Positions 6,135 through 46,229 of a DNA stretch of 64,000 bases are shown in pieces. The position numbers and the translations under genes are program-made. Each line of letters begins with the position of its first letter. Position 1 is the first letter of the stretch. The notes under the pieces are model-generated. The model worked only from the letters and a program-made list of their open reading frames with translations, was not told where the DNA came from and ran no database searches. The stretch lies in NCBI GenBank assembly GCA_903922735.1, contig CAIXUZ010000022.1, forward strand, positions 8,997-72,996, read 5' to 3'. This DNA comes from an uncultured Verrucomicrobia subdivision 3 bacterium (GTDB taxonomy: Bacteria; Verrucomicrobiota; Verrucomicrobiia; Limisphaerales; UBA11358).

Positions 6135-6173
6135 GCTGCCGACGGCAGAGATTTCATGGTAATACTTTCCCGG

Positions 6174-6239
6174 ATGCACCTTCCGCTTGAAGTTGCGGGC
6201 GGGCGGGCGCAGACTCGCGGGGTGCATTCGCTGGCGGAC
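6174..6239 (+). repeat. Repeat family B, copy 1 (~65 nt) downstream of ftsA
   Basis: atgcaccttccgcttgaagttgcgggcgggcgggcgcagactcgcggggtgcattcgctggcggac is about 90 percent identical to 13162-13227. The ends atgcacc/ggtgcat can pair. Confidence 0.6.
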
Positions 6240-6408
6240 ATGGCGGGGGTATTAGCAATGGGTTAACTCTGAATAAAACCAGAAATTTGCCGCTCTACAA
6301 TGAATCGGGATCATGGGCTTGAAGACGGGAAAGCGAATTGAAGATTGACCGCCTTGGCGTTTTTGCTACAACCTCACTCTGTTTCCAGAGTCAGTTTGGC
6401 TCCGGGCG

Positions 6409-13268: not shown

Positions 13269-13793
13269 ATGTATTCATTGAACCAGATGGCCACGGTTCT
13301 GAACCGTTCGACGATCTATCTGTCGGGATTGCAAAAGCGGTTTGCATTGCCGACTTGCGAGGGCGCAACCTACCCAGACGCCTATCTGGAATTTTTTCGC
13401 ACGGTGGTCTATCTCCGCACATTCGGCATTAGCGAAGAGTCACTGCGTGACCTTTGGGTGCTGGAAAAGAAACTGCTGACGTTGCTGCATGTGGATTCTA
13501 CCGGCAGCCCGACATGGTTTCTAGATGCGTGCGGACGCACCACGCATCGGGAGCGGCGCTTGATGCTCAGTAATTTTGATCTCGGCATCCCACTGGCTGC
13601 TCGCGAGGTGCAAACCGGCCTGGATTTCAGCGACCGGTTACCGGAATTGTTTGAGGGCAAAGCGATGGGCGAGGATGCACTGCGTGTGCTGGACGAATGT
13701 CTGAAGATTGAAAAAGGCATTCTCAAGGACGTGAGGTCAGAATTGCCGCAATTACGGGCGGCGACGAAATGGGCGGGACGTTTGCCGAAATAA
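13269..13793 (+). CDS. Hypothetical protein with possible N-terminal MerR-like helix-turn-helix
   Basis: YSLNQMATVLNRSTIYLSGLQKRFAL loosely follows the MerR HTH pattern. It lies directly upstream of the PurA-like gene. The assignment is weak. Confidence 0.4.
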   Translation: MYSLNQMATVLNRSTIYLSGLQKRFALPTCEGATYPDAYLEFFRTVVYLRTFGISEESLRDLWVLEKKLLTLLHVDSTGSPTWFLDACGRTTHRERRLMLSNFDLGIPLAAREVQTGLDFSDRLPELFEGKAMGEDALRVLDECLKIEKGILKDVRSELPQLRAATKWAGRLPK

Positions 13794-13883: not shown

Positions 13884-14942
13884 ATGTCTGTAACAATTGT
13901 TGTCGGCGGCCAATACGGGTCCGAAGGCAAGGGCAAAGTGGTTGCCCTGTTGGCGAAAGAATCAACCTCTCCCTGGCTCGTCCGTTGCGGCGGCCCCAAT
14001 TCCGGTCACACCGTCACGATCGACGGGAAGCCCGTCATCATGCGCCAGGTTCCGTCCTGCTCCGAGCCGGATAAAGCGACTTTTTGCGTGGCGGCCGGCT
14101 GCGTGGTGGACGAGGAAATCCTCCTGCGTGAACTGGATTTACTGAAAATTCCACGAGAACGAATCATTGTGGATCCGCGCAGTGTTTTGGTGACGGAAGA
14201 AGATCGGATGGCTGAAGCCGGCTCTTTGGTCCGAATTGGCAGCACCTGCTCCGGGACGGGGGCAGCCCTGCTGCGTCGGATGTCGCGGGCAAAAGACGTG
14301 CGGCTTTCAAAAGACTCGGCAGCCATCAAGGCGCGCTGTCGCGTTGAAACTGTGGCGACGTTGCTGCATAGCCGGATTGAAGATGGTGGCGACATTATCG
14401 TGGAGGGAACGCAAGGTTTCGCCCTCTCACTTTTGCATGGCCCCGATTATCCCTATGTAACCTCCCGGGACACCACAGCCGCTGGGTTTGCCATGGAAAT
14501 TGGGCTCTCGCCTCGCCAAATCGACAAAATCGTGATGGTCATCCGGACATTCCCGATCCGGGTGGCTGGAACAAGCGGGCCATTCGCCAACGAGTTTTCA
14601 TGGGAACACATTCAAGCCATTTCCGGTGCACCACAAGTGTTGCCAGAATACACGTCGGTGACGAAGCGGTTGCGTCGCGTCGCGCGATTCGATCTCGATC
14701 TCGTGAAGCTCGCTTGCAATTACAATTGCCCAACCAGCTTGGCAGTGATGGGGCTCGACCGGCTTGATTATGCCAACACTGGCTTAACTGCTATCGACGC
14801 ATTGACCTCCAAGGCGCATGTGTTTTTGACTCAAATAGAGCAGGCGACTGATATTCCAATAGAGTTCATTGGCACTGGGTTTGGCACTTTTGACGTGATT
14901 CATGCATTGGTTCCAACCATAAAAACTGATTCACATGGCTGA
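13884..14942 (+). CDS. Adenylosuccinate synthetase family protein, short archaeal/PurZ-like type, with Ser replacing the P-loop Asp
   Basis: Motifs: VVGGQYGSEGKGKV, GGPNSGHTV, IGSTCSGTGAA, VEGTQGFALSLLHGPDYPYVTSRDTTAAG, TFPIRVAG, SVTKRLRRVARFD. At 352 aa it is shorter than bacterial PurA (about 430 aa). Confidence 0.8.
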   Translation: MSVTIVVGGQYGSEGKGKVVALLAKESTSPWLVRCGGPNSGHTVTIDGKPVIMRQVPSCSEPDKATFCVAAGCVVDEEILLRELDLLKIPRERIIVDPRSVLVTEEDRMAEAGSLVRIGSTCSGTGAALLRRMSRAKDVRLSKDSAAIKARCRVETVATLLHSRIEDGGDIIVEGTQGFALSLLHGPDYPYVTSRDTTAAGFAMEIGLSPRQIDKIVMVIRTFPIRVAGTSGPFANEFSWEHIQAISGAPQVLPEYTSVTKRLRRVARFDLDLVKLACNYNCPTSLAVMGLDRLDYANTGLTAIDALTSKAHVFLTQIEQATDIPIEFIGTGFGTFDVIHALVPTIKTDSHG

Positions 14943-17547
14943 AATTAAACTGAAGGAGCTACGAGAAATTCGTCGACGAGCACAAGAATTGCTCAGGTCT
15001 GTCGATACTGACATAAAGCCTTTTCTACACCAAAAGGATAAGGAGACTTTTCGTCGCAAACCTGAATCAGAATCAATAGAAGGAGATGTGAATGTCACTT
15101 CTAGCTGTTCGTGCCTAATGTCATTGGCACTTTCTAATTCCTTTTGTAAGTTTTACGACGTCGAAGATGCAACCAAAGCCAATCAAAAAGCAAAATCAAT
15201 TCTTGACCGCATTATAGATGCTCCGTGGATGAGTTCCGGTCTTACTGCTAATAATGCCTTCTCAACAGCTTTAGTTCTTCGCACTTATGGCTTTTTAAAG
15301 CAAGAAGGCTTGCTGAAGTTGGCCGACATTAAGCGAAAAGCATGGGAATTAAATTTTGGTTTGAAGCAGGAGAAGATTAGCGATTTTGCCATTTATTTGC
15401 AGACACAGAGTAACGAAACCTCTAAATACTTATATTCCTCACTTTCTGACGGGAGTCGAAGCCTTCTTGCGACTGCTTTACCATCTGCTGCGGAAGAAAA
15501 AGAAAAACATGAAAAGAGGCTTAGCCGATTAATTACTTTAGATCTCCGTCGATTGGTTCAATCCGGGTGGATTTATACAAAAGAAAGATTTCCAAATATT
15601 TCCTCTCCACTCGTTGACGACATAGGCAAACGGCCAACGGGTTATTTGTTAGCGAGGACGAATAAAAGACTATTTGATGAGCAGCTTAAAGAATATTTTA
15701 CAGGTTCATCAGAACAAAACCTTGAGGAAATAGCAGTTCAAATGGCAAAAGACCCAGACAATTTTGCTATTAACCAATATTCAGCGTCAGCAACTGTTCT
15801 TTACTGGTTTGTAGACGGGTTAGAGCGCGGACAAATTCATTTAGACGGGAAAGATTGGGGGCGGTTGTGTGAATGGGCTTGTAACGAATTTAATCACGAG
15901 CGATCTCTTGTGTTGGCCGAGCATGATGCAATGATGGATCCTATCGCTTTGGCTATGGCTGCTTGTCTATGTGCAAAAATACGCAACCTGGCTACGCGGG
16001 ATGATCTTGGCACAGGCAAAGGGCATCGAGAAATGTTACCGTCAATGGCAGAACTCGAGCATTCAATTCTGGAACTTTTCAGGCACCAAGCCACGAGTGG
16101 TATTTGGCCTAAGTATTTCCCACTTTTCCATTATCAAGATGCCGGTTCCAATTTTTGTTTTACTTTTGAAATGCTGGAAGCCGTTTTGAATGAGTTCGGG
16201 CATTCAGAAAACAAATTACTAGATCACGAAGATTTTATTAATGGCATCAAAGCCTCAGTTTTATGGTGCGAGGAGAATCGACTGAAATGCTCTGAAGGCA
16301 AGTCAACATACAGCGGATGGAATTCAGGTGGTGATCTGGAATCACTCGAAAAAGAACGTCCAGAATCGTGGGCCACAGCGGTTGTTCACATGTTTCTTTG
16401 GGAGTTAACAAGTGTTCTCTCACAACATATTCAAAAACGAGTTCTGCAAAAATATGGTGCTCGACAGCCAAAAATGTCCGCTGGGCAGATTCAAGAAGCA
16501 ATCAACAATGACGCCAAATGGAGGGAGCAAAATTTCGGAAGTGCCTTGAGTAAGCTTCAAGACATCGAACTTTTTATCGATCGAAAGCATGACAGCTTAA
16601 TTCGAGTTCTGAAAGAGGAGCTTTTAGATGCCAATTTCGTTAAAACGGAATTGCAGGTTCGCCGAGAAAAAGCAAGTGCTCCTATATCGGCTTTGTTATT
16701 TGGACCACCAGGAACTTCCAAAACACAAATAACAAAAGCTGTCGCCGAAGATTTAGGCTGGCCTATGCTTGTGATTAATCCATCAGAGTTTGTTAAAGGC
16801 AGCTTTGAAAATGTATATTTACAGGCAGAGGACATTTTTACGGACTTAATGGATCTGTCTGCGGTCGTTGTCCTTTTCGATGAAATGGATGCTTTGACAC
16901 AAAAGCGGTCGGATGGCAGCAGCGAATCAGGTGGCAATCATCTTGATACAGCAACGCAATTCTTGACCACCTCAATGTTGCCAAAACTTGCCGACTTACA
17001 TGACAATGGAGGAGTTGTTTTTTTCATGGCGACCAATTTCCAAGAAAACTTCGACCCGGCTATTAAACGTGCTGGTCGCTTTGATCTTCTTCTTTGCATG
17101 GGGCCGCCAAAGCTCTGTGAAAAGATCGAAAAACTGAAGCTGTTTCTAAAGCTGTTTCTAAATCCTGTTCCCCAAAATGACAGCATCGAAGCAGCAAAAT
17201 TAAGACTATACGCGATCTTAGCTAAATCCCCCCCCCATCGCGATATGTTGGAATTGTTTACGTTTGGCGAGTTTAAATCGTTTTTACGGCTCTTTGGAAA
17301 GACTGGTAGCGAAGTTTGTGAAAAGCTTAAGACTTGCAATGAGACAAATTTTTTAGAGCAAGTTGATGATTACAGTAAATCGATTGGTCTAAAGTTTGAA
17401 GACTTAAAACTTTTACTAAAAAATCCAACTGACATTAGCCCCCTCAGTAAGATTGACAAACTGCTGATAACTGACTTAGATAAAATTAAAGGCAAGGAAA
17501 TCGGCAAGTATTTTTACGAACGCCGCTTATCGAAGCGTCAGTTTTGA
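14935..17547 (+). CDS. 870-aa protein: unassigned ~580-aa N-terminal region plus C-terminal classical-clade AAA+ ATPase
   Basis: Walker A LLFGPPGTSKTQ, Walker B VVVLFDEMDAL, sensor-1 MATN, arginine-finger region KRAGRFD. Its ATG overlaps the upstream stop (ATGGCTGA). The gene is low in GC. Confidence 0.8.
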   Translation: MAEIKLKELREIRRRAQELLRSVDTDIKPFLHQKDKETFRRKPESESIEGDVNVTSSCSCLMSLALSNSFCKFYDVEDATKANQKAKSILDRIIDAPWMSSGLTANNAFSTALVLRTYGFLKQEGLLKLADIKRKAWELNFGLKQEKISDFAIYLQTQSNETSKYLYSSLSDGSRSLLATALPSAAEEKEKHEKRLSRLITLDLRRLVQSGWIYTKERFPNISSPLVDDIGKRPTGYLLARTNKRLFDEQLKEYFTGSSEQNLEEIAVQMAKDPDNFAINQYSASATVLYWFVDGLERGQIHLDGKDWGRLCEWACNEFNHERSLVLAEHDAMMDPIALAMAACLCAKIRNLATRDDLGTGKGHREMLPSMAELEHSILELFRHQATSGIWPKYFPLFHYQDAGSNFCFTFEMLEAVLNEFGHSENKLLDHEDFINGIKASVLWCEENRLKCSEGKSTYSGWNSGGDLESLEKERPESWATAVVHMFLWELTSVLSQHIQKRVLQKYGARQPKMSAGQIQEAINNDAKWREQNFGSALSKLQDIELFIDRKHDSLIRVLKEELLDANFVKTELQVRREKASAPISALLFGPPGTSKTQITKAVAEDLGWPMLVINPSEFVKGSFENVYLQAEDIFTDLMDLSAVVVLFDEMDALTQKRSDGSSESGGNHLDTATQFLTTSMLPKLADLHDNGGVVFFMATNFQENFDPAIKRAGRFDLLLCMGPPKLCEKIEKLKLFLKLFLNPVPQNDSIEAAKLRLYAILAKSPPHRDMLELFTFGEFKSFLRLFGKTGSEVCEKLKTCNETNFLEQVDDYSKSIGLKFEDLKLLLKNPTDISPLSKIDKLLITDLDKIKGKEIGKYFYERRLSKRQF

Positions 17548-17556: not shown

Positions 17557-20463
17557 CTATTTTACAAGTTGGATCATCTCGAATAGTGAATCATCCACGC
17601 GCCAACGGAGGTCTTCGAGTGAAGAATCATTTTTGAGACAATGGTGGGCATTGGTTTTAAGAAGGTTGGATTTTTGATCGATGCGGTTTTCATTACCGAT
17701 AGGTCGCCCGCCCTTTTTTTGCCGTGCCACTAGACGGTTTCGAATCGCTGATTCAGGTGCATCCACATACCAGAGTTTAGGCTCGTTTCCAAATTGGGAA
17801 AGCGATAGGAAATCGCTGAGATCACGAACGGCATCCACTACCACCGGTCGCTTGATGACAGCCACCATTTCATCGAGTTTACGAATCAAAGGCTCCTGCT
17901 GGTATTGTTCCAAAACAATGATCCCGAAATCTCTCAAGATGGCATCCGTAATTACATTATCAGCGACTTCCTTTTTATACATGCGCTTGGCAAATGGAAG
18001 TTTTAGGTCATCTACCAACAAAGCACGGATAATGTCCCGTGTTCGCAACCAGTGGAACCCGTAAAAGAGTGACAGATAGCGCGCAGCCACTGATTTTCCG
18101 GCCCCGGTCTTGCCCGACAGGCAGATGATTGGAAGTTTTTCGTAAATCAGCGGATGCAGTTTTGGTATGATCAGTTGAGCCTCGGACGGAATTCCCATCG
18201 GCTCAAATTCATTTGCTTCGTAGAAACGTCCCACGATGGCCGAAGTGATCGCGTCCATTTCATCGTGGGATTCCGTTTTCAGGCCAGGTCCCTTCAAACC
18301 CAATTCAGTCAATCCGGCACGCAGAAATTCAAGGCCCTTTTGTTTACGCGGGATGCAAAGCACGTCCTGTGCGGCCCCGGGATAGGATTCGATCACCTTG
18401 GGACCATTGGGTATGGCCTCAATTTCTCGACGCAATTTGATGCCGCGCAAGGTAAGCGGCTTCATCGAGTCAATCAGAGCGGGATATGCGGAAATTCCCA
18501 CGCTATTCAAATCGTATTCGGCGACCCGCATGATGCCAGCGGATTTGGAAACTTCGGATCCGCCACCCGGAAGGCCAAGCGGTGAATCGATACTGACGAT
18601 GGCGGGTTTTGTTTCCGCAATATAAGCCATGATGTCTTCGTCGGATTCGAGCGAGCAGGTTTTGACCTGCATCCCATCCAGAACGGCCGCGCCGGTGGGT
18701 TTAACCTTGCTGGCCGTCAGATCAAGACCAACAACCCGCGATCCAGCGGGAATACAGCCGTGGGTCGCCACACGCACAATGGTCGGCTTTGAGCGGACGG
18801 CAGGCTTGGCCTCGCCAAATAAATCCAAATCTCCCTGGGCCACGGGCCGAAATTCCGGCTCGTTCTGGGAACGGATATTCCGGGCGGTTTTCAACCACTT
18901 CTTTAACTCGCCATAGCCAAGCAGATTCAAAACCCGACTGGAATCGATATGGGGCAAAACCCTTTGGGCAATTTTGAGGTGTTCCAAATGCGCACGGCTA
19001 TGAGCGTCACTACCAAATGAAATCCAACAGCCAGTTGAAGATGCCTGGCGGAGCAACGGCAAAAGCAAATCCAGCCGGGAGGGAAAACAATTGAATTCCA
19101 GAGCCACCCGCCATTTCTTGCAAGCTGCAAAAACCCGGTCCCAATCCACCGCCACCGGAGTACGGTGATAGTTCGGCACGCCCGGTTTCCCCAGAATCGT
19201 TGCCGTAGGGTGGCCTAAAATATCAATAAGACCCGACTCAATGGCTCGCAAAATCCGGTTGGTATTTACCGTGTGATCAGCACTCCATGAACTGTGAACC
19301 GACCCCACCACAATATCCAGGCCGGCCAGCAGGCCAGGTGGAAGATCCACAGCACCATCCACCAAAATGTCGGCTTCTACCCCGTGAAGAATCTTGATGC
19401 CTGGCCGCACTAATGACAGTGAAACGGCCTGCCGAATCCAAGCAACCGGAGTGACCCCGCCTTGCAATTTGCTCGACCGGCTGTGATCGGTAATAGCCAG
19501 ATATTCCAAGCCCATTTTTTTGGCCGCATCGGCCATGGTTTGGAGCGCGGCTGCGCCGTCAGACCAATTGGTGTGCGAGTGCAGGTCGCCCCGCAAACTG
19601 AAGCCTCCCGAATTTAATAGAGGGTCAGCTTGTAAAGCTAGAGCGGCAATTGATTGGGGTTGGCCGGCAAAATATTCGGCGGTTTCGATAAAAGCCGTCC
19701 ATCCCAATATATGCTTAATGGAAACCTTGTTTTCAGAGATGCGCTTAAACCGGAAAAAGTGATCTTTACTCACCGCTTTCTTCACCACCTTCACCAGCGA
19801 GGTGCCCTCGGGCAGTTTGGTTTGAACGCAAAGGCCACCCATAATTGGTTCGAGACCGTCACCTAATTTGGGGGCAGCCCACAAGCATGGCTGGCCGACA
19901 AGGTTTTCAATTTCGTGAAGCAACCGCATCAACGGCGGAACCACATGCGCCGCCTCCCATAATGAATTCGCTTTACCCTCCCAAATTTCCAGCAGTGCCG
20001 GGGCTTTGAGGGTGGTTGACTTGACCGCATTGGAAAGCCAATCCTCTGGGGGCCTATTTTTGGATAAGGCTTCCGCCACCTGTTTGAGGCCCAAACCACG
20101 AACAGAGCGAAGACGCAAACACGCTTGGTGCACCGGAGTGCTTAATGCCTCAAGTTCTGGAATTGTGCCCGTCGCCTCAATTTTCAATAAATGGTCTTTA
20201 ATCCGGGTTGAGGGATCGCTATCGAGGGTATCTTCGTCAGCATCACCACGAAGCCACCGATTCACATTCGTGGTGTAGCCATCGAGACTCAGAGCCGCTT
20301 TCCAGAGCGCAAAAACTCGATATTCTGGAATATCTACGTTCTTGGCGAGGGCATCAATTTGAAGCAGATACGCCAAATCATACAATGGTTGAACGTGTTC
20401 AAAATCACGCGGACGAAAATAATCCGAACCCAAAGTGAGCAAGTGTTTTTTGGGGTTGTTCAT
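17557..20463 (-). CDS. 968-aa fusion: PolX-like HhH N-terminus (palm degenerate), PHP phosphoesterase, DUF429-like RNase-H-fold domain, P-loop nucleotide-kinase-like domain
   Basis: HhH: LRSVRGLGLKQVAEAL. PHP: DLHSHTNWSDG, ITDHSRS, GVEADIL, VGSVHS, ILGHP, FGSDAHS. DUF429-like: VVGLDLT, IVSIDSPLGLPGG, HDEMDAITSA. Kinase: ICLSGKTGAGKS. Confidence 0.7.
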   Translation of the reverse strand: MNNPKKHLLTLGSDYFRPRDFEHVQPLYDLAYLLQIDALAKNVDIPEYRVFALWKAALSLDGYTTNVNRWLRGDADEDTLDSDPSTRIKDHLLKIEATGTIPELEALSTPVHQACLRLRSVRGLGLKQVAEALSKNRPPEDWLSNAVKSTTLKAPALLEIWEGKANSLWEAAHVVPPLMRLLHEIENLVGQPCLWAAPKLGDGLEPIMGGLCVQTKLPEGTSLVKVVKKAVSKDHFFRFKRISENKVSIKHILGWTAFIETAEYFAGQPQSIAALALQADPLLNSGGFSLRGDLHSHTNWSDGAAALQTMADAAKKMGLEYLAITDHSRSSKLQGGVTPVAWIRQAVSLSLVRPGIKILHGVEADILVDGAVDLPPGLLAGLDIVVGSVHSSWSADHTVNTNRILRAIESGLIDILGHPTATILGKPGVPNYHRTPVAVDWDRVFAACKKWRVALEFNCFPSRLDLLLPLLRQASSTGCWISFGSDAHSRAHLEHLKIAQRVLPHIDSSRVLNLLGYGELKKWLKTARNIRSQNEPEFRPVAQGDLDLFGEAKPAVRSKPTIVRVATHGCIPAGSRVVGLDLTASKVKPTGAAVLDGMQVKTCSLESDEDIMAYIAETKPAIVSIDSPLGLPGGGSEVSKSAGIMRVAEYDLNSVGISAYPALIDSMKPLTLRGIKLRREIEAIPNGPKVIESYPGAAQDVLCIPRKQKGLEFLRAGLTELGLKGPGLKTESHDEMDAITSAIVGRFYEANEFEPMGIPSEAQLIIPKLHPLIYEKLPIICLSGKTGAGKSVAARYLSLFYGFHWLRTRDIIRALLVDDLKLPFAKRMYKKEVADNVITDAILRDFGIIVLEQYQQEPLIRKLDEMVAVIKRPVVVDAVRDLSDFLSLSQFGNEPKLWYVDAPESAIRNRLVARQKKGGRPIGNENRIDQKSNLLKTNAHHCLKNDSSLEDLRWRVDDSLFEMIQLVK

Positions 20464-20479: not shown

Positions 20480-21118
20480 TTATCGACCGGGCCAACTAGC
20501 CGCGAAAGAATCGATCACGGAACTGACCTGAGCTAAGGCCGTTGGATCATTTATACAATCGAAATGGTCCGCATCAATAATGTGAATATTTTTCGCCCCA
20601 CGCAAAAACGCCTCGTGATAGGCCCGATTCAGCCTTTTAAAATATTCCACGTCGATAACTTGCTCGATGGAACGGTTGCGTTTCCGAATCCGGTCGATAA
20701 TGAGATCGTCACTCCCTTTCAAATAAATAATAAGATCGGGAGCCGGGAGCCGCGCTCGCAGGAACTCGTAGAGCTGAATAAATACTTTCTTTTCAGATGC
20801 CACCTGAAAATTCAAATCTCCAAAAATTAAATCCTTGGCAAAAGTGAAATCGGTAATCGATTCTTGGGCGGAATTGGTCAGCCCCTTTAATTGATGATAA
20901 TGCACCAACAGGAACTGCATTTCCGTTTCAAAAACGTTCCCAACGGGATCTCGATAAAAAGCGCTCAAAAAGGGGTTTTTCTCAAAATCCTCCAAAACCA
21001 GAGCAGCCTTGCGGAAATCGGCCAGCATGGTTGCGAGGGTCGTTTTGCCGACACCGATGCAGCCATCAACCGCGATATGTAATTTTGAACCGCCGCTCAT
21101 GCGGAAAAGTCTTAACAT
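20480..21118 (-). CDS. Deoxynucleoside kinase family protein (variant: DFT in place of the (D/E)RS motif)
   Basis: HIAVDGCIGVGKTTLATML, LEDFEKNPFLSAFYRDP, QFLLVHY, and the LID-like IDRIRKRNRSIEQ. The start is taken at the ATG at 21118 (alternative 21100). The track ORF extends to 21367 and overlaps the upstream gene. Confidence 0.7.
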   Translation of the reverse strand: MLRLFRMSGGSKLHIAVDGCIGVGKTTLATMLADFRKAALVLEDFEKNPFLSAFYRDPVGNVFETEMQFLLVHYHQLKGLTNSAQESITDFTFAKDLIFGDLNFQVASEKKVFIQLYEFLRARLPAPDLIIYLKGSDDLIIDRIRKRNRSIEQVIDVEYFKRLNRAYHEAFLRGAKNIHIIDADHFDCINDPTALAQVSSVIDSFAASWPGR

Positions 21119-21222
21119 TTTTGCTAGAAAAAAACACCTGAATTTGTCTTCGATTTCGATTATCTCACCTAGAATGCTAGGTTGAGTTGAATGCGAAGCG
21201 TAAAAGAATCGTTTTAAAACGA

Positions 21223-21930
21223 CTAGATGTTTCGCCCCATGTATGCCGGGCGATTCGGTTTCCGAGGTGAATCGGTAATGCGCAAAGTAGCGTAGCCACG
21301 TTTCATTGAGAGATCGTAGTGCTGCCAAGACGCAACCTTCGCATGACGTTTCATTCGTTTTCTCCATTCCCTGTGGTTATAGAGTTTTGATCCGATGAAG
21401 TGAAAACCCGACAACGTCCGGAAAACAAATCCCGGTTCGCCTTTTAAGGCATGCGCAGGAAAGCTGCTGATGTTGTCAAAGTCCAGCATGATGAGGTGTT
21501 TCTCGGCATACTGGTTGACCCGGCTATTCAGGCCCAGAACATAATCTGTAGCCTCCTTCACACGAAGCCCCACCAAGGTGCGCCCCATGCTGTTGCGCAA
21601 CTGCTCCAGCCATTTGTCAGTCACGCGCCCCTTGGGGGACCAAACCGTGAAGCGCGTATGGTGGTAGTAGGATTTGGGGCAATAAATGTCGAAAGAGTAA
21701 TCGCGTATTTCCGGGTTTTCCTCGTCCAGAATTTCCAGAATGCGGGCCAATGAAACGGGAGGAATTTCGCGGGAGACCCGGGCAATGAATTTCCTTACCT
21801 GCCGGATACGGGCGCCAATATCCTTTTCCATGGAAGGAATGAACTCCCCGTAATCAGCCTTGTCTCGCTCGGAAAAAAGGCGCCGGAGCAACTTGGCATA
21901 TCCGCGAGGGAAGGTGACCGGCTGCCGCAA
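21223..21930 (-). CDS. Hypothetical protein with weak archaeo-eukaryotic primase (AEP)-like motif pair
   Basis: HLIMLDFDN (hhhhDxD) followed about 20 aa later by FRTLSGFHFIG (sGxH). The start is uncertain: TTG at 21930 or ATG at 21831. The track ORF start at 22209 runs antisense into the AIPR gene. Confidence 0.45.
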   Translation of the reverse strand: MRQPVTFPRGYAKLLRRLFSERDKADYGEFIPSMEKDIGARIRQVRKFIARVSREIPPVSLARILEILDEENPEIRDYSFDIYCPKSYYHHTRFTVWSPKGRVTDKWLEQLRNSMGRTLVGLRVKEATDYVLGLNSRVNQYAEKHLIMLDFDNISSFPAHALKGEPGFVFRTLSGFHFIGSKLYNHREWRKRMKRHAKVASWQHYDLSMKRGYATLRITDSPRKPNRPAYMGRNI

Positions 21931-21954
21931 GCCTTTGGGCGCTGGTTTGCAACG

Positions 21955-23577
21955 ATGTTTTTCCAAGGGGTAACGCAGGTTACCATTCCGGATGGTGCGG
22001 GAGATGGTAAGGTGGATATCCTTGTCGCCTGCCAGGTGGGCGACAAGGTCCGCTACAAAATTCTCAACACCAAGTTTACCAACGAATATGACCGCAGCTC
22101 CCCGGTAGCATTCTACGACGAAATTACGCGTTTCTGGCAGGCCTTTGAAAACAAGGGGAATCGCAATGACTATCTGAACAATGTGGTGCGGCAGACACTC
22201 CGTGAGCATTACAAAAAACTGTTCAAACTATATGACGAAGGGAAGGCCGAACTGTTCTTTGTCACCAACCACAGAATCAATGAAAACCAGTATCGCAGCG
22301 TGCAGCGGTATGGCATGAGCATCCTGCACTTGGAAGATATTCTCCAATATGTGGCTGAGAATACTGAGGGCGCGATGCCTGAGACAGAATCTTTGCTTTT
22401 AAATGGCATTTCAAATGTTTTAACCCCGGCGACAAACGAAACGGAGGTGCCGACCTCCATCGTGTTTGCCCGGTTGATTGACTTTATTCACTACATGGAA
22501 GAGGACCCGCTTGACCTACTCTTCGCCCGGAATGTCCGACTTTGGCTGGGGAACACGGAAACGAATCAGGAGATACAAAAAACCTTCAAAGTTGCCCCAA
22601 AGGAATTCGCCTACAGCAACAACGGAATTACCATCTTGTGCAAGAAACATACGCACAACCCAGGCAAGCAAGAGTTGTCATTGGAAAATCCACGGGTAGT
22701 GAACGGATCTCAGACGTTGCACAGTATTAGACAAGTCGACAGCCCCTCCTCCAATGCCCGCGTGATGGTTCGGATTATTGAAGTGCCGGCCAACGGTCAC
22801 GGGGATCTGCCGGCTCAAATCGAAAAACGTAAGGAGATCATCCATAAAATATCCATCCGCTCAAACCAACAAAACCCAATCAAACGATGGAACCTAGTTT
22901 CGAATGATGATTTTCAAAACGAACTGGCCCGGAATTTTTGGTCGAAACATCTTTATTACGAACGGCGCCAAAACGAATGGAAGGTGCGAAAATTAGAATT
23001 GTGGGGAGTGGGTATTGAGCGGGGGCCAGATTTACGTTGGATGGTGCAGCTGATCGCGGCCTCGCACTATGGCTCACGAAAACTTGGGGCGGCGGTGGCG
23101 CAAGGGCAAATTAATCTGCTGTTCGAGGAGGAACCCTACGCCGTGATCCGAAGCACCAGCCCAGAAAAAGCATATCAGTTGTTTCTGCTCGGAGAAATCA
23201 TGTCGTTGTCACTGAGGCGTCTACGCGGCAGCAAGCGCTATATCGCGAACTTAAAAACCTACATCGACCTGGCCATATTTTCTTTTATTTGCAAAGCGCT
23301 ATATGAGGCCGGTATCAGCCTAGGGAAAGAGGCCCTGAATGAAAAACTAGAAGCATTACGGAACAGTGGGACAGTGGAATTTGACAAACCGATCAAGGCG
23401 CTCATTGATATTTTCTGCAAAGAATATGAGGCTGAGAAAGCAAGAATATACCGGAAAGAAGGCAAAGAATTGAGCGTTGCCAATTATGTCAAAAGCCGCA
23501 ACTACATTGCGAATTTGTTGGAAGTAGCAATTCCAAAATCAATAGTCAAGGCGCTCACGGAAACCATGAGTGACTAA
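21955..23577 (+). CDS. AIPR (abortive infection phage resistance) family protein, possibly 5'-truncated
   Basis: PDGAGDGKVDILVA...KILNTKFT is nuclease-like, and the central NPRVVNGSQTLHSIRQ with RIIEV... is typical of AIPR as I recall it. Only about 12 codons precede the GDG motif. Confidence 0.6.
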   Translation: MFFQGVTQVTIPDGAGDGKVDILVACQVGDKVRYKILNTKFTNEYDRSSPVAFYDEITRFWQAFENKGNRNDYLNNVVRQTLREHYKKLFKLYDEGKAELFFVTNHRINENQYRSVQRYGMSILHLEDILQYVAENTEGAMPETESLLLNGISNVLTPATNETEVPTSIVFARLIDFIHYMEEDPLDLLFARNVRLWLGNTETNQEIQKTFKVAPKEFAYSNNGITILCKKHTHNPGKQELSLENPRVVNGSQTLHSIRQVDSPSSNARVMVRIIEVPANGHGDLPAQIEKRKEIIHKISIRSNQQNPIKRWNLVSNDDFQNELARNFWSKHLYYERRQNEWKVRKLELWGVGIERGPDLRWMVQLIAASHYGSRKLGAAVAQGQINLLFEEEPYAVIRSTSPEKAYQLFLLGEIMSLSLRRLRGSKRYIANLKTYIDLAIFSFICKALYEAGISLGKEALNEKLEALRNSGTVEFDKPIKALIDIFCKEYEAEKARIYRKEGKELSVANYVKSRNYIANLLEVAIPKSIVKALTETMSD

Positions 23578-23588: not shown

Positions 23589-24665
23589 TTAACTTTCTGT
23601 GCTAGTTACGGCACTTTTAAGGAATTCCCAGCCGACATATTCCTGGGCAAGACGCTGTTTAGCAGTGAACAACTGGCGGGCGGGTTCAGCGCAGTCGCCG
23701 AGCCAATCGCAAAGGGTCGGGGATGGCGGTTCGCCGTCATACGGCTGGCCGCGGCCAGCGCCAAGTTTCAATAACTGACGATAGCTCCAGAGGTGCGGCT
23801 CGACGGAGGGAATTCCCGGTTTGGTTGCGAACTGGGGAATGCGCAAGCCTTGGGGATCGAGATCACCAAAATACAGGATGCGGCGCACCCCGCCGATTTC
23901 CGCGAAGATGTCCGAAAGATAACGAACACCGTCCAAGAAACGATTGCCATCGCCGTAAAGAACGGCACTGAACAGCTTGCGCTCGGCGTTCCAGCGGCAA
24001 TATGAGTGCCAAGTGGCCGCGTTTTCGATGACGATCAGCGGTTGAGCGGAAGCGCAGGCCGGGCCGCGTTTCCAAGCGAGAGGCACACCGATGATCTCAC
24101 ACGCCAAGTCACTTTTGGCGTCCAGATGGTTTGGCCGAAACAGCACCGATGAAAGCAGAGAGTCGAGCCGTTTTTCATCACCAAAAATCTGAAGAGAGCG
24201 TTCTTTAATGGGGACCACCGGGCTATTTATTTCATGGGCGGACAAAAAGGCATTCAATTTGAGCAAATCCTCAAGCTCCACATTCACGCGGGTATGGGTG
24301 AGAAACTGCAATTTTTGAACCCAAGGAATTGACGCCAGTTCCACGCTTTTATCCGACACGTCAGCGGGATGAATCCGGCGAAACGCCGCGAACCATTCTC
24401 GCTCGGAACTCAACGGAAGCGCAAATCTTTGAATGCGCTCGCCATCGCGCCGTAAACGCAGTTCCAAAAATCCATCCAGAGCCAACAGTTTGGCGATCCG
24501 GCGGGCTTCAGCCTCGTCCTCGGCCGTTTGCAAACCACTCTCATCCAAAAAAGTTTCCCAATCCTGACTCCACGCCGTTTTGGGATGAGGATTGCGTTCC
24601 CGAAGACGCGAGAACCGAGCAAAGATTGCCTCAGTAAATGATGCTTCAGTGAGGGCTAATTTCAT
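23589..24665 (-). CDS. jetD: Wadjet JetD (DUF2220/Toprim-like nuclease subunit)
   Basis: The C-terminal ILYFGDLDPQGLRIP motif and its position after jetC. The ATG at 24665 is 2 nt after the jetC stop. The track start at 24695 would overlap jetC. Confidence 0.8.
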   Translation of the reverse strand: MKLALTEASFTEAIFARFSRLRERNPHPKTAWSQDWETFLDESGLQTAEDEAEARRIAKLLALDGFLELRLRRDGERIQRFALPLSSEREWFAAFRRIHPADVSDKSVELASIPWVQKLQFLTHTRVNVELEDLLKLNAFLSAHEINSPVVPIKERSLQIFGDEKRLDSLLSSVLFRPNHLDAKSDLACEIIGVPLAWKRGPACASAQPLIVIENAATWHSYCRWNAERKLFSAVLYGDGNRFLDGVRYLSDIFAEIGGVRRILYFGDLDPQGLRIPQFATKPGIPSVEPHLWSYRQLLKLGAGRGQPYDGEPPSPTLCDWLGDCAEPARQLFTAKQRLAQEYVGWEFLKSAVTSTES

Positions 24666-24666
24666 C

Positions 24667-27600
24667 TTAGCTCTCCAATTCCGCCAAGGTGTCATGGGCG
24701 CGAGCCGGATGCGCCCAATTTTCGATCACCACCCGCCCGTCCGGACCAATGGATTTATGAATGGTAATCATCAGAATAGTGTTGGCACCCCGCAAGGCTG
24801 AAGGGGCATCTTTATCCGGCATGGCGAGGACAAGTTGCAATCCCAGCGCGTCCGCTGTGCTCATGCAACTGGAGACGCCCTCGCCGGACAACTTAGAAAA
24901 AGCCTCATCCATCGCCACCAGTCCCAGCGTATCCCGGCGCGAAAGGCTGCCCGGTTCGGCGCGATGATAAGCGCGCAGGAAAGACGCCAACATCGCGAGG
25001 AAAAAGGGTGACTGGCTTTCACCGCCGCTCAATTTACCAGCATGGCGATTCAATGAACTCCACCCGGTATCCTCCGGCAACCGCTGATCCTTGGCCTTCA
25101 TATCGAACTTGAAATACTCACGATAGTCCAAGCGCAAACGCAGCGGGCTATCCGCCGGCGACTTGAGGGCTTCCATCAATTTGGCCTTGGCCGCTTCAAT
25201 CTCGGGATCATGGATGGCAGCGACCAACGGGTCGGTCACCTCCAGCCCGTTTTTCAGAAGTTTCCAGAGCTGGTCAAAATCTGAATCATGGCGTTGATCC
25301 CATGAAATACGGTAATGGTTATGGCCGATGGGTTCGTCAATGCTGGAGTTCAACTGCTTGATGTCTTTCACGACTTGATCCGTTCGACGCTTCAGCTCGC
25401 TCATGACATGCTGTTTGAGGCGGTCCTCCCAGTCTTTTTTACTCTCGTCCGATTTAAGCCGATATTCTTCAACCTTTTGATCTTCCAACAGCCGCCGCTC
25501 CGCATCGTAATCATCGTTACTATCATCCAATTCGTTGAACCGGGAAAATTCGGCAAACTGCTGACGAAGAAGTGCCCGCTCACGGATCTTTTCTCCCCGC
25601 GCCGTTTCCGCCTTTTTAGCTTCTTCCCCGCGCAATTCAATAGCTCGTTTGATTCGGTCATCCCAATTGCGATAATCGGACAAAAACACGGCCGCACTTT
25701 CTTCCCGAATCTGGGAGGGCAAACCTTGACCAAAGTGAGCCACACACTCTTCAAAGTTAAGACGCCGTTCAGACTCGGTGGTTAGCAACGACGTATGCCT
25801 CTCTTCCTGATCACGGATGCGTTTGACGGTATCCTTATCTTTGAGGCGTGCTTCCAGGGCGACGAGCTCGGTGTGCTCTGAATCGAGCCGCTGCACCTCG
25901 GCCACACGTTCCTCCAAATCCGGTTTGGCCAACACGGCTAATTGGTTTTTTACCGAGGCCAATTCATTTTGTTTCGTCTCCAACAAAGCAAATCCTTCTG
26001 CGCCGGAAACCAAAACCGCAGCGCCAAGGTGCAACTCTTCCCCGCCCTCAATCCAGCGGGTCAACCGCTGGGATACTTCCTGAGCTTTGAGCAAATCAGC
26101 AGATTTTTCGGCAAGGATCTTCAGCTTGCGCTGCTTCATGGCTTCCAAGCCTTTGATACCAATGACCGGATCAAAATCAGCAGTGCGTCCCAATTTGGAA
26201 GTCACCGGCCGGTTCCAGAGAACCGCATTGACCGTGATGGCCCGAGGTTTGCCCTTGAACTGTGACGGCGAATCAACGCAGACCACCCGGCCCAGTAAGT
26301 GATCCAGAAAAGCGCGGGCGACAGGATGGGACGCGGTCACTTTCTCAGCCAAGGAATTGGGGAGCACCTGAGCATCCAACTTCAAGGCCTCGTCCGGATC
26401 CACTAGCGGTTCGCGACGGGTTTCCCGGTCGAACTCCTTATCCAAAAGCTGCTGCGCGAGCAAGTGACGCTGGGGGTCTAAAATCAAAGAGAATCGGTTA
26501 TTCCGCAGGAACAATTCCAGCGCAGGCCGCCATTGCTCCGCCTCCGGCTTAATCTCTGTCAGACGGCATAACTGCTCCGGCCCAAAAGCGCCGGGGGTGC
26601 GGGGTAACTTTTTTTCAAAGTAATCGCGCAAGGGAAAATCGCCATGAGTCCGATTGGAATCCAGTTTGCGCATATCCTCTTTAAGCGCATTTACCTCGCG
26701 AGTCAGACTGGTCACTTTGCCCGAATAAATGCTCTGCTCGGTTGCGGCTTTGACACGCAAACCATTGAAGTGATCGGCCAGAGCAGGCAAGGCCGCAAGG
26801 CCAGACTCAACCGTGCCAGAGAAAATTGACGACAGCAAATCGGCGCGCGGCTCGATCCCATCGGCCAACAATCCCCCGGGCAGTTGCCGACCCAATTGGA
26901 GCCATCGTTTCCAAGACTCGGCCCGCTCGCGCAACTGGCTCAGAGTATCGGTGCGCCGTTGAGTCAAGCCCACGACTTCGGCATGAAGCTGCTTCTGCCG
27001 ATTGCGAAGATTCAGCAACTCATCCCCGCCTTCTTTAGACAAAAGGACGCGGGCGGCGTCCATTGCCAGTTTGGCCGCCTCGCGTTTGGAAGACGTAGCG
27101 GATAAATTACGTTGCTCGTCCTCTGCCTGGGATCGTAACGAGATGAGTAACTCGGCCGCCGCTTCCCGCGCCTCCACGGTGCGCTTCAATTCGAAATCCT
27201 TTTCCAAAACCCGCATCAATCGAGCCTGTTTATCGGCGGCGAGCTGATCCTCGTGATGGCTGGCGATTCGTTTTAGAAACAGCAGCTGATTTTCATACCG
27301 CTGCAATTTGCGGGCATAATCCTCATGAACCTCCAGACTCCGACGAACCGCATCAATTTCGAGCGGCGTTTCAGCCAACAGCCGTTCGCGAATAAATTCA
27401 TCGAACCGAGTAATCCGTTGAAAAGCCAAAGACTCAGGCAACGTCTTAAGAAGCGACTTGAGATTAAAGTTTAAACTTGCTGCATGCGAAAGGTTGTCCA
27501 GATAGGACTCCTCACGATCCCAAACATCTCCACCCTCGCGTTTGAGCCAAGCACGAAACGGAGCTTCCTCCAGAAAGTCGCCTTGCTCATCACATGTTTG

Positions 27601-38387: not shown

Positions 38388-38394
38388 ATATTTT

Positions 38395-46163: not shown

Positions 46164-46229
46164 TTTCTGCTTCCCTTTTCAGGTTTGGATTTTATATTTC
46201 CCGCCGGTTTTTTAACAAGCACTAATCTT

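What the first reader, a model, noticed from the sequence alone, without database searches (positions are those of the whole stretch)
17557..20463. Unusual 968-aa four-domain fusion: catalytically degenerate PolX-like head, intact PHP phosphoesterase, DUF429-like RNase-H-fold domain and P-loop nucleotide kinase
Seen in the translation, with approximate residue ranges. Residues ~25-135 resemble the helix-hairpin-helix 8-kDa/fingers part of bacterial PolX (LRSVRGLGLKQVAEAL), but the following palm region lacks the GSxRR and DxD signatures. Residues ~295-525 carry all the PHP metal-binding motifs (HSHTNWSDG, ITDHS, GVEADI, VGSVHS, LGHP, GSDAH). Residues ~570-760 look like DUF429 (VVGLDLT, IVSIDSPLGLPGG, HDEMDAITSA). 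Residues ~790-968 are a small P-loop kinase (LSGKTGAGKS ... VVDAVRD ... NRLVARQKKGG). I know of no described protein with this combination. The gene lies immediately downstream of a dNK-like gene in a defence island. Inference: the protein targets a DNA end or gap through the HhH/PolX scaffold and combines phosphoesterase/nuclease activity with nucleotide phosphorylation.
Basis: partly seen in the sequence, partly recalled or inferred. Interest (0 to 1): 0.7.

Follow-up and report, generated by a model that had tools for sequence, protein, structure and literature searches.

The report
Nuclease-kinase fusion of a PurZ-like operon
The 968-residue four-domain protein is real, and it is the large subunit of a widespread, undescribed bacterial gene cluster found in defence islands, whose hallmark partner resembles the phage enzyme that makes 2-aminoadenine (Z) DNA precursors.

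Summary
It is not an assembly artefact. More than 100 full-length homologues with 50-90% identity exist, conserved along the whole length. AlphaFold gives pLDDT 86 and pTM 0.84.

The four domains are:
- a PolX-derived head without catalytic residues or thumb;
- an intact PHP phosphoesterase;
- a RuvC/DUF429-like RNase H-fold nuclease with invariant carboxylates;
- a dNMP-kinase-like P-loop domain.

The main new result is the genomic context. Among the 54 related loci (of 78 fetched) with at least 5 kb of flank on both sides, 53 carry a short PurA homologue. Its catalytic Asp13 is replaced by Ser, which is the signature of phage PurZ/PurZ0. The same 53 loci carry either an AAA+ ATPase or a dCTP-deaminase/dUTPase-fold protein, and 24 carry a deoxynucleoside kinase.

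In Proteobacteria the PolX-PHP head is replaced by an unrelated DEDD 3'-5' exonuclease. In some Acidobacteria the kinase is a separate gene.

The family is rare among species. It is absent from the phage, plasmid and viral collections searched, and it often sits beside known defence systems.

The function is inferred, not shown. I propose a defence-linked module that couples DNA breakdown to deoxynucleotide conversion, possibly towards 2-aminoadenine nucleotides.

The parts
19594..20463 (-). Residues 1-290 of the 968-aa protein: PolX-derived head. It has an 8-kDa-like domain, HhH fingers and a degenerate palm. The thumb is absent and there are no catalytic Asp residues.
   Evidence: Foldseek matches bacterial PolX. 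A MAFFT alignment with canonical PolX shows a conserved HhH ('LRLRSVRGLG'). GSxRR, DxD and the third Asp are absent and the thumb is deleted.
18874..19593 (-). Residues 291-530: PHP metal-dependent phosphoesterase / 3'-5' exonuclease domain, predicted active.
   Evidence: Pfam PF02811 E 2e-11. The profile matches the PolX PHP domain in the PDB at 5e-52. Nine metal ligands (H295 H297 D302 H327 E363 H390 H418 D486 H488) are invariant in 36 homologues.
18139..18783 (-). Residues 561-775: RuvC/DUF429-like RNase H-fold nuclease domain.
   Evidence: The domain model has pLDDT 85.6. The best PDB folds are MOC1 resolvase, terminase nuclease and the SPT6 YqgF-like domain. The Pfam DUF429 hit is sub-threshold and PADLOC PDC-S44 scores 1e-5. 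D581, D626, E692, D734 and D737 are invariant.
17560..18138 (-). Residues 776-968: P-loop (d)NMP-kinase-like domain.
   Evidence: Walker A G784-S791, D877, R880 and R910 are invariant. The fold matches adenylate-kinase-related proteins and many phage dNMP kinases. The PDB profile hit is uridylate kinase.
20480..21367 (-). Deoxynucleoside kinase gene directly upstream in the same operon. The true start is probably Met84 or Met90 of the listed ORF.
   Evidence: Pfam dNK 1.9e-28 over residues 98-286. Homologues lie next to the family in 24 of 54 loci.
13884..14942 (+). PurZ-type short adenylosuccinate-synthetase homologue (Ser13 in place of the catalytic Asp13). It is the near-universal partner gene.
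   Evidence: NCBIfam scores fall between archaeal PurA and PurZ, below both cutoffs. PDB hits: P. horikoshii PurA 7e-58, PurZ0 3e-36, PurZ 1e-30. 'GSEGKGK' is invariant. An NJ tree groups it with phage PurZ/PurZ0, with shared D13S, GTT>GST and R304>hydrophobic changes. It is present in 53 of 54 loci.
14935..17547 (+). 870-aa AAA+ ATPase (Cdc48/FtsH-type single AAA domain, residues ~580-740) with a conserved N-terminal region of ~570 aa and unknown fold. It is convergent with the target gene; the stop codons are 9 nt apart.
   Evidence: Pfam AAA 3.4e-20. PADLOC IetA-like 4e-14. It is linked to the family in 17 loci. The N-terminal region matches nothing in Pfam or the PDB.

Best explanation
The gene encodes the large nuclease-kinase subunit of a conserved system of three or four genes.

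SHOWN:
- The protein is a real fusion of an inactivated PolX DNA-binding head, a PHP domain with all metal ligands, a RuvC/DUF429-like RNase H-fold domain with invariant carboxylates, and a dNMP-kinase-like domain.
- Across many phyla its gene is linked to a PurZ-type (Asp13->Ser) adenylosuccinate-synthetase homologue.
- It is also linked to either an AAA+ ATPase or a DCD/dUTPase-fold protein, and often to a deoxynucleoside kinase.
- The system is patchily distributed and frequently lies in defence islands.

INFERRED MECHANISM:
1. The PolX-like head docks the protein on nicked, gapped or 3'-ended DNA.
2. The RuvC-like domain nicks the DNA, and the PHP domain (a DEDD exonuclease in the proteobacterial versions) chews 3'->5', releasing dNMPs.
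3. The fused kinase and the separate dNK push deoxynucleotides and deoxynucleosides towards the di- and triphosphate level.
4. The PurZ-like enzyme condenses aspartate with a guanine deoxynucleotide, as phage PurZ does with dGMP. Host PurB and kinases could turn the product into 2-aminoadenine (dZ) nucleotides.
5. The net effect during infection would be to degrade DNA and to distort or poison the dNTP pool. The AAA+ or DCD-like subunit would act as regulator or effector.

This would be a nucleotide-manipulating anti-phage system.
For: The protein is real and conserved:
- Full-length homologues are conserved in all four domains.
- The AlphaFold model is confident, pTM 0.84.
- Fold matches are PolX, YcdX and adenylate kinase, RuvC-like resolvases and phage dNMP kinases.

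The polymerase is dead and the PHP site is intact:
- The polymerase motifs and the thumb are lost.
- The PHP ligands are invariant.

The gene cluster is conserved:
- Among loci with at least 5 kb of flank, the PurA-like gene is present in 53 of 54, an AAA+ or DCD-like gene in 53 of 54, and dNK in 24 of 54. Gene order varies but the linkage is preserved.
- The PolX-PHP head is replaced by the unrelated DEDD exonuclease PF13482 (3.6e-25) in Proteobacteria. This points to 3'-5' exonuclease activity as the shared requirement.
- In some Acidobacteria the kinase is a separate adjacent gene.

The partner enzyme carries PurZ signatures:
- Ser13 is invariant in 66 locus copies and in 116 of 116 scorable metagenomic copies.
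- The GTT->GST and R304->hydrophobic changes are shared with PurZ and PurZ0, and the NJ tree groups the family with them.
- In the literature, Asp13 is 99% conserved in PurA and is Ser in 100% of phage PurZ. PurZ0 phages always carry a dUTPase-fold DutZ (PMC12884076).
- Expressing the Z-cluster is toxic and puts Z into E. coli DNA (PMC8342488).

The context suggests defence:
- The window holds AbiU, Wadjet and type I R-M.
- Other loci hold type IIG R-M, LmuB, CapP-like and McrB-like genes, and type I R-M in 8 loci.
- The system lies inside a 46-kb region of low, heterogeneous GC.
- The kinase domain of a homologue matches the kinase part of the defence dCTP-deaminase model at 3.8e-8.
- Only 322 of 185,579 species genomes have a relative.
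Against: - No activity has been measured. Every mechanistic step is an inference from homology.
- The PurA-like protein scores below NCBIfam's trusted cutoffs for both PurZ (211 against 300) and archaeal PurA (294 against 368). Its substrate is therefore unknown.
- No DatZ, MazZ or Z-selective polymerase is present.
- The window's own system has an AAA+ ATPase instead of the Dut/DCD-like protein. The third component is therefore not a fixed metabolic step.
- The DCD-like partner in other loci lacks the deaminase Glu, by my manual alignment to E. coli Dcd recalled from memory.
- Several proteobacterial loci are flanked by housekeeping genes (topoisomerases, GlnE, HemB, AccD). The defence association is suggestive and has not been quantified.
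- The middle domain matches RuvC-like folds only weakly (TM 0.36-0.5), and Pfam DUF429 is below threshold.
Confidence: 0.45

Rival explanations
1. Signal-generating module. The nuclease-kinase protein senses or processes foreign DNA. Together with the PurZ-like enzyme and dNK it makes an unusual (succino- or 2-amino-) purine nucleotide. That nucleotide acts as a second messenger and switches on a variable effector: the AAA+ ATPase, or the membrane-anchored DCD-fold protein.
For: - The third gene is swapped between two unrelated families, AAA+ and DCD-like with a C-terminal hydrophobic helix and coiled coil. The rest of the system stays constant, as is typical of sensor/effector modularity in defence systems.
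- The DCD-like protein lacks the deaminase Glu but keeps the nucleotide-binding DPGF motif (sequence; alignment by eye).
- dNMPs derived from DNA breakdown can be immune triggers (abstract of bioRxiv 10.64898/2026.01.15.699771, found).
Against: - No cyclase-like or other known signalling enzyme is present.
- Neither third-gene family has a known ligand-sensor domain.
- The AAA+ N-terminal region matches nothing.
- The idea is purely architectural.
Confidence: 0.2
2. Stand-alone end-healing or DNA-repair enzyme. The PolX-like head binds gaps, PHP removes 3' blocks or acts as AP endonuclease/exonuclease, the RNase H-like domain incises, and the P-loop domain is a 5'-OH polynucleotide kinase, analogous to PNKP. 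The neighbouring genes would be incidental.
For: - The head and PHP domain derive from bacterial PolX. By established knowledge, the PolX PHP domain has 3'-5' exonuclease, AP-endonuclease and 3'-phosphatase activities.
- P-loop kinases of this superfamily include polynucleotide kinases.
Against: - The kinase's nearest folds and sequences are (d)NMP, adenylate and uridylate kinases. No PNK appears among the top matches.
- The family is linked to a PurZ-like gene in 53 of 54 loci and often to dNK, which a repair role does not explain.
- It occurs in only ~0.17% of species genomes with no conserved synteny, and it lies in defence islands.
Confidence: 0.15
3. Self-DNA modification system. The nuclease and exonuclease domains open short gaps in the host chromosome. 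These are refilled with a modified purine nucleotide (dZ or a relative) made by the PurZ-like/kinase pathway, marking self DNA.
For: - A gap-binding head, an endonuclease, an exonuclease and a supply line for a modified dNTP occur together in one locus.
- RlmJ-family N6-adenine methyltransferase genes lie beside the system in 12 loci.
Against: - No active polymerase, ligase or cognate restriction component is found in the conserved set.
- No bacterium is known to carry Z in its DNA.
- Expression of the Z-cluster is toxic in E. coli (PMC8342488).
Confidence: 0.08
4. Assembly chimera or frameshift fusion of separate genes, or an ordinary housekeeping salvage enzyme.
For: In a few Acidobacteria the kinase is a separate gene, so the domains can exist apart.
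Against: - More than 100 independent full-length homologues come from many assemblies, including closed chromosomes. They align without breaks across every junction.
- The AlphaFold model of the whole chain has pTM 0.84.
- The distribution is patchy, which argues against a housekeeping role.
Confidence: 0.02

Closest known systems
Bacterial family X DNA polymerase (PolX: Pol-beta-like core + C-terminal PHP, e.g. T. thermophilus and B. subtilis PolX)
   Same: - The order of 8-kDa-like, HhH fingers, palm and PHP domains is the same.
- The PHP domain is ~35-40% identical, with all metal ligands present.
- Foldseek gives E 1e-25 over ~590 columns.
   Different: - GSxRR and all three catalytic Asp residues are missing and the thumb is deleted, so it cannot polymerise.
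- It carries two extra C-terminal domains, a RuvC-like nuclease and a kinase.
- It is not a housekeeping gene.
Phage Z-genome cluster (PurZ/PurZ0 + DatZ/MazZ or DutZ + DpoZ)
   Same: - The partner gene carries the PurZ signature Ser13 and two further PurZ-type substitutions, and it groups with PurZ/PurZ0.
- Many loci add a dUTPase/DCD-fold protein, as PurZ0 phages add DutZ (PMC12884076).
- Kinases and a 3'-5' exonuclease are in the same locus.
   Different: - The system is bacterial, chromosomal and absent from viral collections.
- There is no DatZ, MazZ or Z-selective polymerase.
- The PurZ-like score is below NCBIfam's PurZ cutoff.
- The product and the presence of Z have not been tested.
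Nucleotide-depletion defence enzymes (kinase-dCTP deaminase of Tal et al. 2022; AvcD)
   Same: - A P-loop nucleotide-kinase domain is combined with a DCD-fold protein in a defence-island setting.
- The kinase of a homologue hits the PADLOC dCTPase model at 3.8e-8.
   Different: - Here the kinase is fused to nucleases and not to the deaminase.
- The DCD-like partner lacks the catalytic Glu and is missing from this window.
- A PurZ-like synthetase is the constant partner.
DUF429 / RuvC-YqgF-terminase clade of RNase H-like nucleases (Majorek et al. 2014, PMC3985635)
   Same: - The fold and the carboxylate pattern agree.
- DUF429 is already known to fuse with nucleotide-metabolism domains (NUDIX, RelA/SpoT).
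   Different: - The Pfam DUF429 score is below threshold.
- The fusion with PolX-PHP or DEDD exonuclease and a kinase is not listed in that survey.
Polynucleotide kinase-phosphatase end-healing enzymes (T4 Pnk, bacterial Pnkp)
   Same: A phosphoesterase and a P-loop kinase sit in one polypeptide that may act at nucleic-acid ends.
   Different: - The kinase is closest to (d)NMP kinases.
- The phosphoesterase is PHP, not HAD or calcineurin-like.
- No ligase or Hen1 partner is present.

Membership tests
Bacterial PolX (family X polymerase) | N-terminal 8-kDa-like domain and HhH fingers | tested here: met
   A MAFFT alignment with 11 canonical PolX sequences shows 'YRxxxLWxAA' and HhH2 'LRLRSVRGLG' aligned. 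Foldseek matches PolX. HhH1 (GIG) is degenerate.
Bacterial PolX (family X polymerase) | Palm GSxRR motif and the three catalytic aspartates (DxD + D) | tested here: not met
   Canonical 'AGSLRRGKETIGDIDIL' aligns with 'APKLGDGLEPIMGGLCV'. The third Asp ('DLRVV') aligns with 'AFIET'. No GSxRR occurs in the protein.
Bacterial PolX (family X polymerase) | Thumb subdomain | tested here: not met
   The ~70 thumb columns are gaps in all 12 family members aligned.
Bacterial PolX (family X polymerase) | C-terminal PHP domain | tested here: met
   The PDB profile hit to the ttPolX PHP domain is 5.5e-52. NCBIfam PolX PRK08609 matches only in the PHP part, 161 bits against a cutoff of 426.
PHP phosphoesterase superfamily (PF02811) | Pfam score above the gathering threshold, and the nine metal-binding His/Asp/Glu residues | tested here: met
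   The score is 44.9 bits against 26.4. H295, H297, D302, H327, E363, H390, H418, D486 and H488 are invariant in 36 sequences.
DUF429 (PF04250) / RuvC-like RNase H clade | Pfam DUF429 score above the gathering threshold | tested here: not met
   The window domain scores 14.7 bits and a proteobacterial homologue 15.7 bits, against a cutoff of 23.
DUF429 (PF04250) / RuvC-like RNase H clade | RNase H-like fold with conserved acidic residues on strand 1, strand 4 and the C-terminal helix | tested here: met
   The domain model has pLDDT 85.6. The best PDB folds are MOC1, terminase nuclease and the SPT6 YqgF-like domain, E from 6.6e-4 and TM 0.36-0.5, so the fold match is weak. D581, D626, E692, D734 and D737 are invariant.
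(d)NMP kinase P-loop family | Walker A, a LID/arginine residue, and an NMP-kinase fold | tested here: met
   GKTGAGKS, D877/R880 and R910 are invariant. Folds match 3lw7 and adenylate kinases and phage dNMP kinases. The Pfam AAA_18/33/17 hits are only sub-threshold.
Polynucleotide kinase-phosphatase (PNKP) | Kinase domain of the PNK type acting on 5'-OH ends | tested here: inconclusive
   No PNK appears among the top 50 PDB or BFVD fold matches. Substrate preference cannot be tested in silico.
Phage PurZ / Z-cluster (for the linked gene 13884-14942) | Catalytic Asp13 replaced by Ser | tested here: met
   'GSEGKGK' is invariant. The literature criterion is from PMC12884076.
Phage PurZ / Z-cluster (for the linked gene 13884-14942) | NCBIfam PurZ model NF038379 above its cutoff | tested here: not met
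   The score is 211.3 bits against a cutoff of 300. The archaeal PurA model scores 293.8 against 368.
Phage PurZ / Z-cluster (for the linked gene 13884-14942) | Accompanying dATP/dGTP hydrolase (DatZ, MazZ, DutZ) and Z-selective polymerase | tested here: not met
   None is present in the window. Other loci carry a DCD/dUTPase-fold protein with only weak matches (Pfam DCD 0.0027; TIGR02274 1.3e-7). No polymerase is found.
Phage PurZ / Z-cluster (for the linked gene 13884-14942) | dGMP + Asp -> dSMP activity; Z in DNA | not testable with these tools
   This needs enzymology and LC-MS.
Known anti-phage systems (PADLOC-DB v2) | Significant full-length match of the components to a catalogued system | tested here: not met
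   Only partial hits were found: PDC-S44 over 58 residues, VakA for dNK, and generic AAA (IetA). The PurA-like gene has none.

The most novel reading that the evidence does not exclude
Bacteria from at least six phyla carry a chromosomal immune or DNA-modifying system built around a PurZ-type enzyme. The system converts guanine deoxynucleotides, released from DNA by its own nuclease-kinase subunit, into 2-aminoadenine (dZ) nucleotides. This bacterial family may also be the evolutionary reservoir from which phages obtained PurZ/PurZ0.
Probability: 0.2. Interest if true: 0.92.

Novelty: new variant of a known kind. Interest (0 to 1): 0.74.

Why it matters
If the inferred function is right, a pathway so far seen only as a phage counter-defence trick (PurZ-based purine replacement) would also be used by bacteria. 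It would be physically coupled to DNA degradation. That would add a new mechanism to nucleotide-based immunity and bear on the origin of Z-genomes.

Even without the Z hypothesis, the results give three concrete things:
- They define a conserved and experimentally tractable cassette of 3-4 genes. It is present in cultured strains such as Paludibaculum fermentans, Pirellulaceae SH501, Nitrosomonas, Bradyrhizobium, Mesorhizobium and Mariprofundus.
- They show that thousands of database entries labelled 'adenylosuccinate synthase' lack the catalytic Asp and are probably not PurA.
- They give a clear example of non-homologous exonuclease displacement (PolX-PHP against DEDD) inside one system.

Tried and rejected
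- Two literature searches for the PADLOC name 'VakA', which the dNK gene hits, returned nothing relevant.
- Searches combining PurZ, adenylosuccinate synthetase or 2-aminoadenine with anti-phage and defence terms found no description of such a bacterial system. A 2026 domain-centric defence survey mentions none of the domains.
- I tested whether the N-terminal region of the AAA+ partner hides a DCD-like domain, which would unify the two alternative third genes. hhalign gave probability 0.3%, so this was rejected. That region also matches nothing in the PDB sequences or Pfam.
- I looked for the family in IMG/VR viral contigs, GenBank phages and PLSDB plasmids. Only PHP-domain hits to ordinary PolX were found and no full-length relatives. 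A prophage or plasmid origin is therefore not supported.
- The ORFs at 13269-13793(+) and 21223-22209(-) gave no tblastn hit (E <= 1e-5) in the related loci, so I did not count them as parts of the system.
- The chimera/frameshift explanation was rejected.
- A second large protein search with the PurA-like protein returned only close family members and added little beyond the Ser13 count.

Full report
**1. The observation**

The window holds an ATG-to-stop ORF of 968 codons at 17557-20463 on the minus strand. No GSxRR motif exists anywhere, and no DxD lies in the palm region.

Independent tools agree with the four-domain reading.
- Pfam finds a PHP domain above threshold, and only weak P-loop kinase matches at the C-terminus.
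- NCBIfam and a profile search of PDB sequences match the PHP part to bacterial PolX, E 5e-52.
- An AlphaFold model built on 36 homologues is confident: pLDDT 86.3, pTM 0.84, and only the 541-554 linker is disordered.
- Foldseek aligns residues ~1-530 with T. thermophilus and D. radiodurans PolX, and the C-terminal domain with adenylate-kinase-like proteins.
- In the viral structure library the C-terminal domain matches many phage dNMP kinases.
- A separate model of residues 555-775 (pLDDT 85.6) is closest to the RuvC-like resolvase MOC1, to terminase nuclease domains and to the YqgF-like domain of SPT6. The match is weak. This is the RNase H-like clade in which DUF429 was placed by Majorek et al. 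2014 (PMC3985635). Pfam DUF429 itself is only a sub-threshold hit.

**2. It is not an artefact and not a one-off**

The large protein database returns over 2,300 hits. The best 120 are nearly all 955-1009 aa, 48-90% identical, and come from many independent assemblies. JGI pipelines label them 'PHP family hydrolase / predicted nuclease with RNAse H fold / dephospho-CoA kinase'.

A 36-sequence alignment is conserved through all domain junctions. Invariant positions include:
- the nine PHP metal ligands (H295, H297, D302, H327, E363, H390, H418, D486, H488);
- the RNase H-type carboxylates (D581, D626, E692, D734, D737);
- the kinase Walker A (G784-S791) with D877, R880 and R910.

Aligned with canonical PolX, the head keeps the 8-kDa-like helices and the second helix-hairpin-helix. 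It lacks GSxRR and all three catalytic aspartates, and the thumb subdomain is absent. 'Catalytically degenerate PolX-like head' is therefore correct.

**3. The context is the real finding**

A scan of one genome per species found 322 relatives in 185,579 species, and 78 loci were fetched. They fall into the following architectures:
- full-length proteins like the query, in Acidobacteriota, Verrucomicrobiota, Planctomycetota, Spirochaetota and Desulfobacterota;
- Clostridia/Sedimentisphaerales forms, which have a more PolX-like but equally Asp-less head;
- proteins of ~640-700 aa in Alpha-, Beta- and Zetaproteobacteria, Bacteroidota and a cyanobacterium, which share only the RNase H-like and kinase domains with the query;
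- a short form in some Acidobacteria, where the kinase is a separate adjacent gene of ~185 aa.

In the 640-700 aa proteins the N-terminal part is a DEDD 3'-5' exonuclease (Pfam RNase_H_2 PF13482, 3.6e-25), unrelated to PolX or PHP.

I searched the loci with the window's neighbouring proteins and clustered all locus ORFs. Among the 54 loci with at least 5 kb of flank on both sides:
- a PurA-like gene is present in 53;
- either an AAA+ ATPase like window 14935-17547 or a ~350-aa DCD/dUTPase-fold protein with a C-terminal hydrophobic helix and coiled coil is present in 53;
- a deoxynucleoside kinase is present in 24.

Gene order and orientation vary, but the linkage persists. This is the signature of a functional system. 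In the window the arrangement is PurA-like > AAA+ > < target < dNK. The AAA+ and target stop codons are 9 nt apart, and 16 nt separate dNK from the target.

**4. The PurA-like partner is of the PurZ type**

- It is a short (352 aa) archaeal-type enzyme. The best PDB hit is Pyrococcus horikoshii PurA (7e-58), followed by PurZ0 of Gordonia phage Archimedes (3e-36) and phiVC8 PurZ (1e-30).
- It scores below NCBIfam's cutoffs for both archaeal PurA and PurZ.
- Its P-loop reads GSEGKGK, where PurA, including the Pyrococcus enzyme, reads GDEGKG.
- The Ser is invariant in 66 locus copies and in 116 of 116 scorable metagenomic homologues. All of those are annotated simply as 'adenylosuccinate synthase'.
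- A 2026 study reports that Asp13 is 99% conserved in PurA and is replaced by Ser in 100% of 147 phage PurZ/PurZ0 sequences (PMC12884076).
- Two further substitutions are shared with PurZ/PurZ0 and not with either PurA: GTT->GST near Thr128, and TGRRRR->T(K/N/Q)x(hydrophobic)RR around Arg303-304. That segment is implicated in 2'-OH recognition (PMC8342488).
- A simple neighbour-joining tree groups the bacterial family with PurZ0/PurZ. The tree is small and carries no support values.
- PurZ0 phages invariably carry a dUTPase-fold dATP/dGTP pyrophosphatase, DutZ. The DCD/dUTPase-fold partner in most bacterial loci recalls this.

**5. The setting**

In the window the four genes lie next to AbiU (21955-23577), a Wadjet JetABCD operon (23589-30312) and a type I R-M system (35110-41003). 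They sit within a 46-kb stretch of low, heterogeneous GC against ~0.60-0.63 further right.

In other loci the flanks include type IIG R-M, Lamassu LmuB, CapP/RmrA-like and McrB-like genes, and type I R-M in eight loci. Several proteobacterial loci are flanked by housekeeping genes.

No full-length relative exists in IMG/VR, GenBank phages or PLSDB plasmids. The PurA-like gene and the whole set of components are not catalogued in PADLOC v2. The searchable literature holds no description of such a system.

**6. How it most likely works**

Shown: the domain composition, which sites are intact and which are dead, the conserved gene partnership, and the patchy distribution in defence-island-like regions.

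Inferred:
1. The dead PolX head serves as a DNA nick, gap or end-binding module.
2. The PHP domain acts as a 3'-5' exonuclease or 3'-end phosphoesterase. Its replacement by a DEDD 3'-5' exonuclease in other members supports exonuclease activity as the shared requirement.
3. The RuvC-like domain supplies endonucleolytic cuts.
4. The dNMP-kinase-like domain, together with dNK, phosphorylates the released or salvaged deoxynucleotides.
5. The PurZ-like enzyme diverts guanine deoxynucleotides towards succino-2-aminodeoxyadenylate and hence, with host PurB and kinases, possibly towards dZTP.

Expression of the phage Z-cluster is toxic and replaces A by Z in E. coli DNA (PMC8342488). An infection-triggered version could therefore abort phage replication by poisoning or unbalancing the dNTP pool.

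I give this composite model 0.45. The specific claim of Z synthesis gets about 0.2.

The interchangeable AAA+ and DCD-like third genes fit a regulator or effector role. They keep a 'nucleotide signal plus effector' model alive (0.2). A stand-alone end-healing or repair role (0.15) does not explain the obligatory PurZ-like partner or the (d)NMP-kinase-like fold. A self-modification role (0.08) lacks a polymerase or ligase and a restriction partner.

**7. Comparison and novelty**

The protein is PolX-derived but fails the defining polymerase features, so it should not be filed as PolX. It is a bona fide PHP-domain protein. Its middle domain belongs to the RuvC/DUF429 clade by fold and by its carboxylates, but not by the Pfam threshold. 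Its kinase is NMP-kinase-like.

The system resembles the phage Z-cluster and the kinase-dCTP-deaminase defence enzymes in parts, but it matches neither. I rate it a new variant of a known kind (nucleotide-manipulating, nuclease-containing defence-island systems). There is a realistic chance that it is something categorically new.

**8. Verdict**

- The finding is upgraded from 'odd fusion protein' to 'subunit of a conserved, undescribed, PurZ-type multigene system'.
- Interest is 0.74.

Noticed in passing
L026, L039, L041, L045, L049, L052, L054, L066, L073, L074, L076, L077 (genes adjacent to the system): An RlmJ-family N6-adenine methyltransferase gene (Pfam PF04378, 1e-81) lies within one or two genes of the system in 12 proteobacterial loci from the alpha, beta and zeta classes. 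Its orientation varies. It could be a shared insertion site or an accessory component.
   Followed up: partly
L030, L032, L038, L039, L043, L046, L050-L052, L056, L073, L074, L077 (e.g. L032:12324-13067): An uncharacterised ~247-aa protein (N-terminus 'NRYVGDVGDFAKYGLLR') accompanies the system in 13 loci. It has no Pfam, PADLOC or NCBIfam match.
   Followed up: partly
window 14935-16644 (+): The N-terminal ~570 residues of the AAA+ partner are conserved in 17 loci, with motifs such as 'SGIWPKYFPLFHY', 'GWNSGG' and 'PESWATAVV'. They match nothing in Pfam or PDB sequences, so the fold and role are unknown.
   Followed up: partly
window 1-46000 versus 46000-64000: GC content is 0.43-0.55 and heterogeneous over the first 46 kb, against 0.59-0.64 afterwards. 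There is a tRNA-Ser at 296-388(-) and a tRNA-Arg at 34503-34579(+). Within the operon the AAA+ gene has GC 0.416 and the PurZ-like gene 0.552. The whole left part looks like a mosaic of acquired DNA.
   Followed up: partly
window 20480-21367 (-): The dNK ORF as listed (295 aa) probably starts at Met84 or Met90. Homologues are ~200 aa and the Pfam dNK match begins at residue 98.
   Followed up: partly
window 21223-22209 (-): This 328-aa ORF overlaps the AbiU gene on the opposite strand by ~255 nt and the 5' end of the listed dNK ORF on its own strand. It has no family hit and no counterpart in the related loci, so it is probably not a gene.
   Followed up: partly
window 30562-31221 (-): A 219-aa ORF matches only the C-terminal part of PADLOC 'RT-Protease_XI' models (1e-9). 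It may be a remnant or a stand-alone domain next to the Wadjet operon.
   Followed up: no
L080 (Bacillus phage vB_BpsS-140, locus positions 5950-7071): A phage 'purA' with the Ser-type P-loop (GSEGKGK) gave the best E-value among phage hits to the window's PurA-like protein (2e-45). It groups with phiVC8 PurZ in the NJ tree.
   Followed up: partly
L010 (Candidatus Aquilonibacter MAG): This is the only locus with full flanks that has a 933-aa relative of the target and none of the partner genes. It may be a decaying or orphan copy.
   Followed up: no
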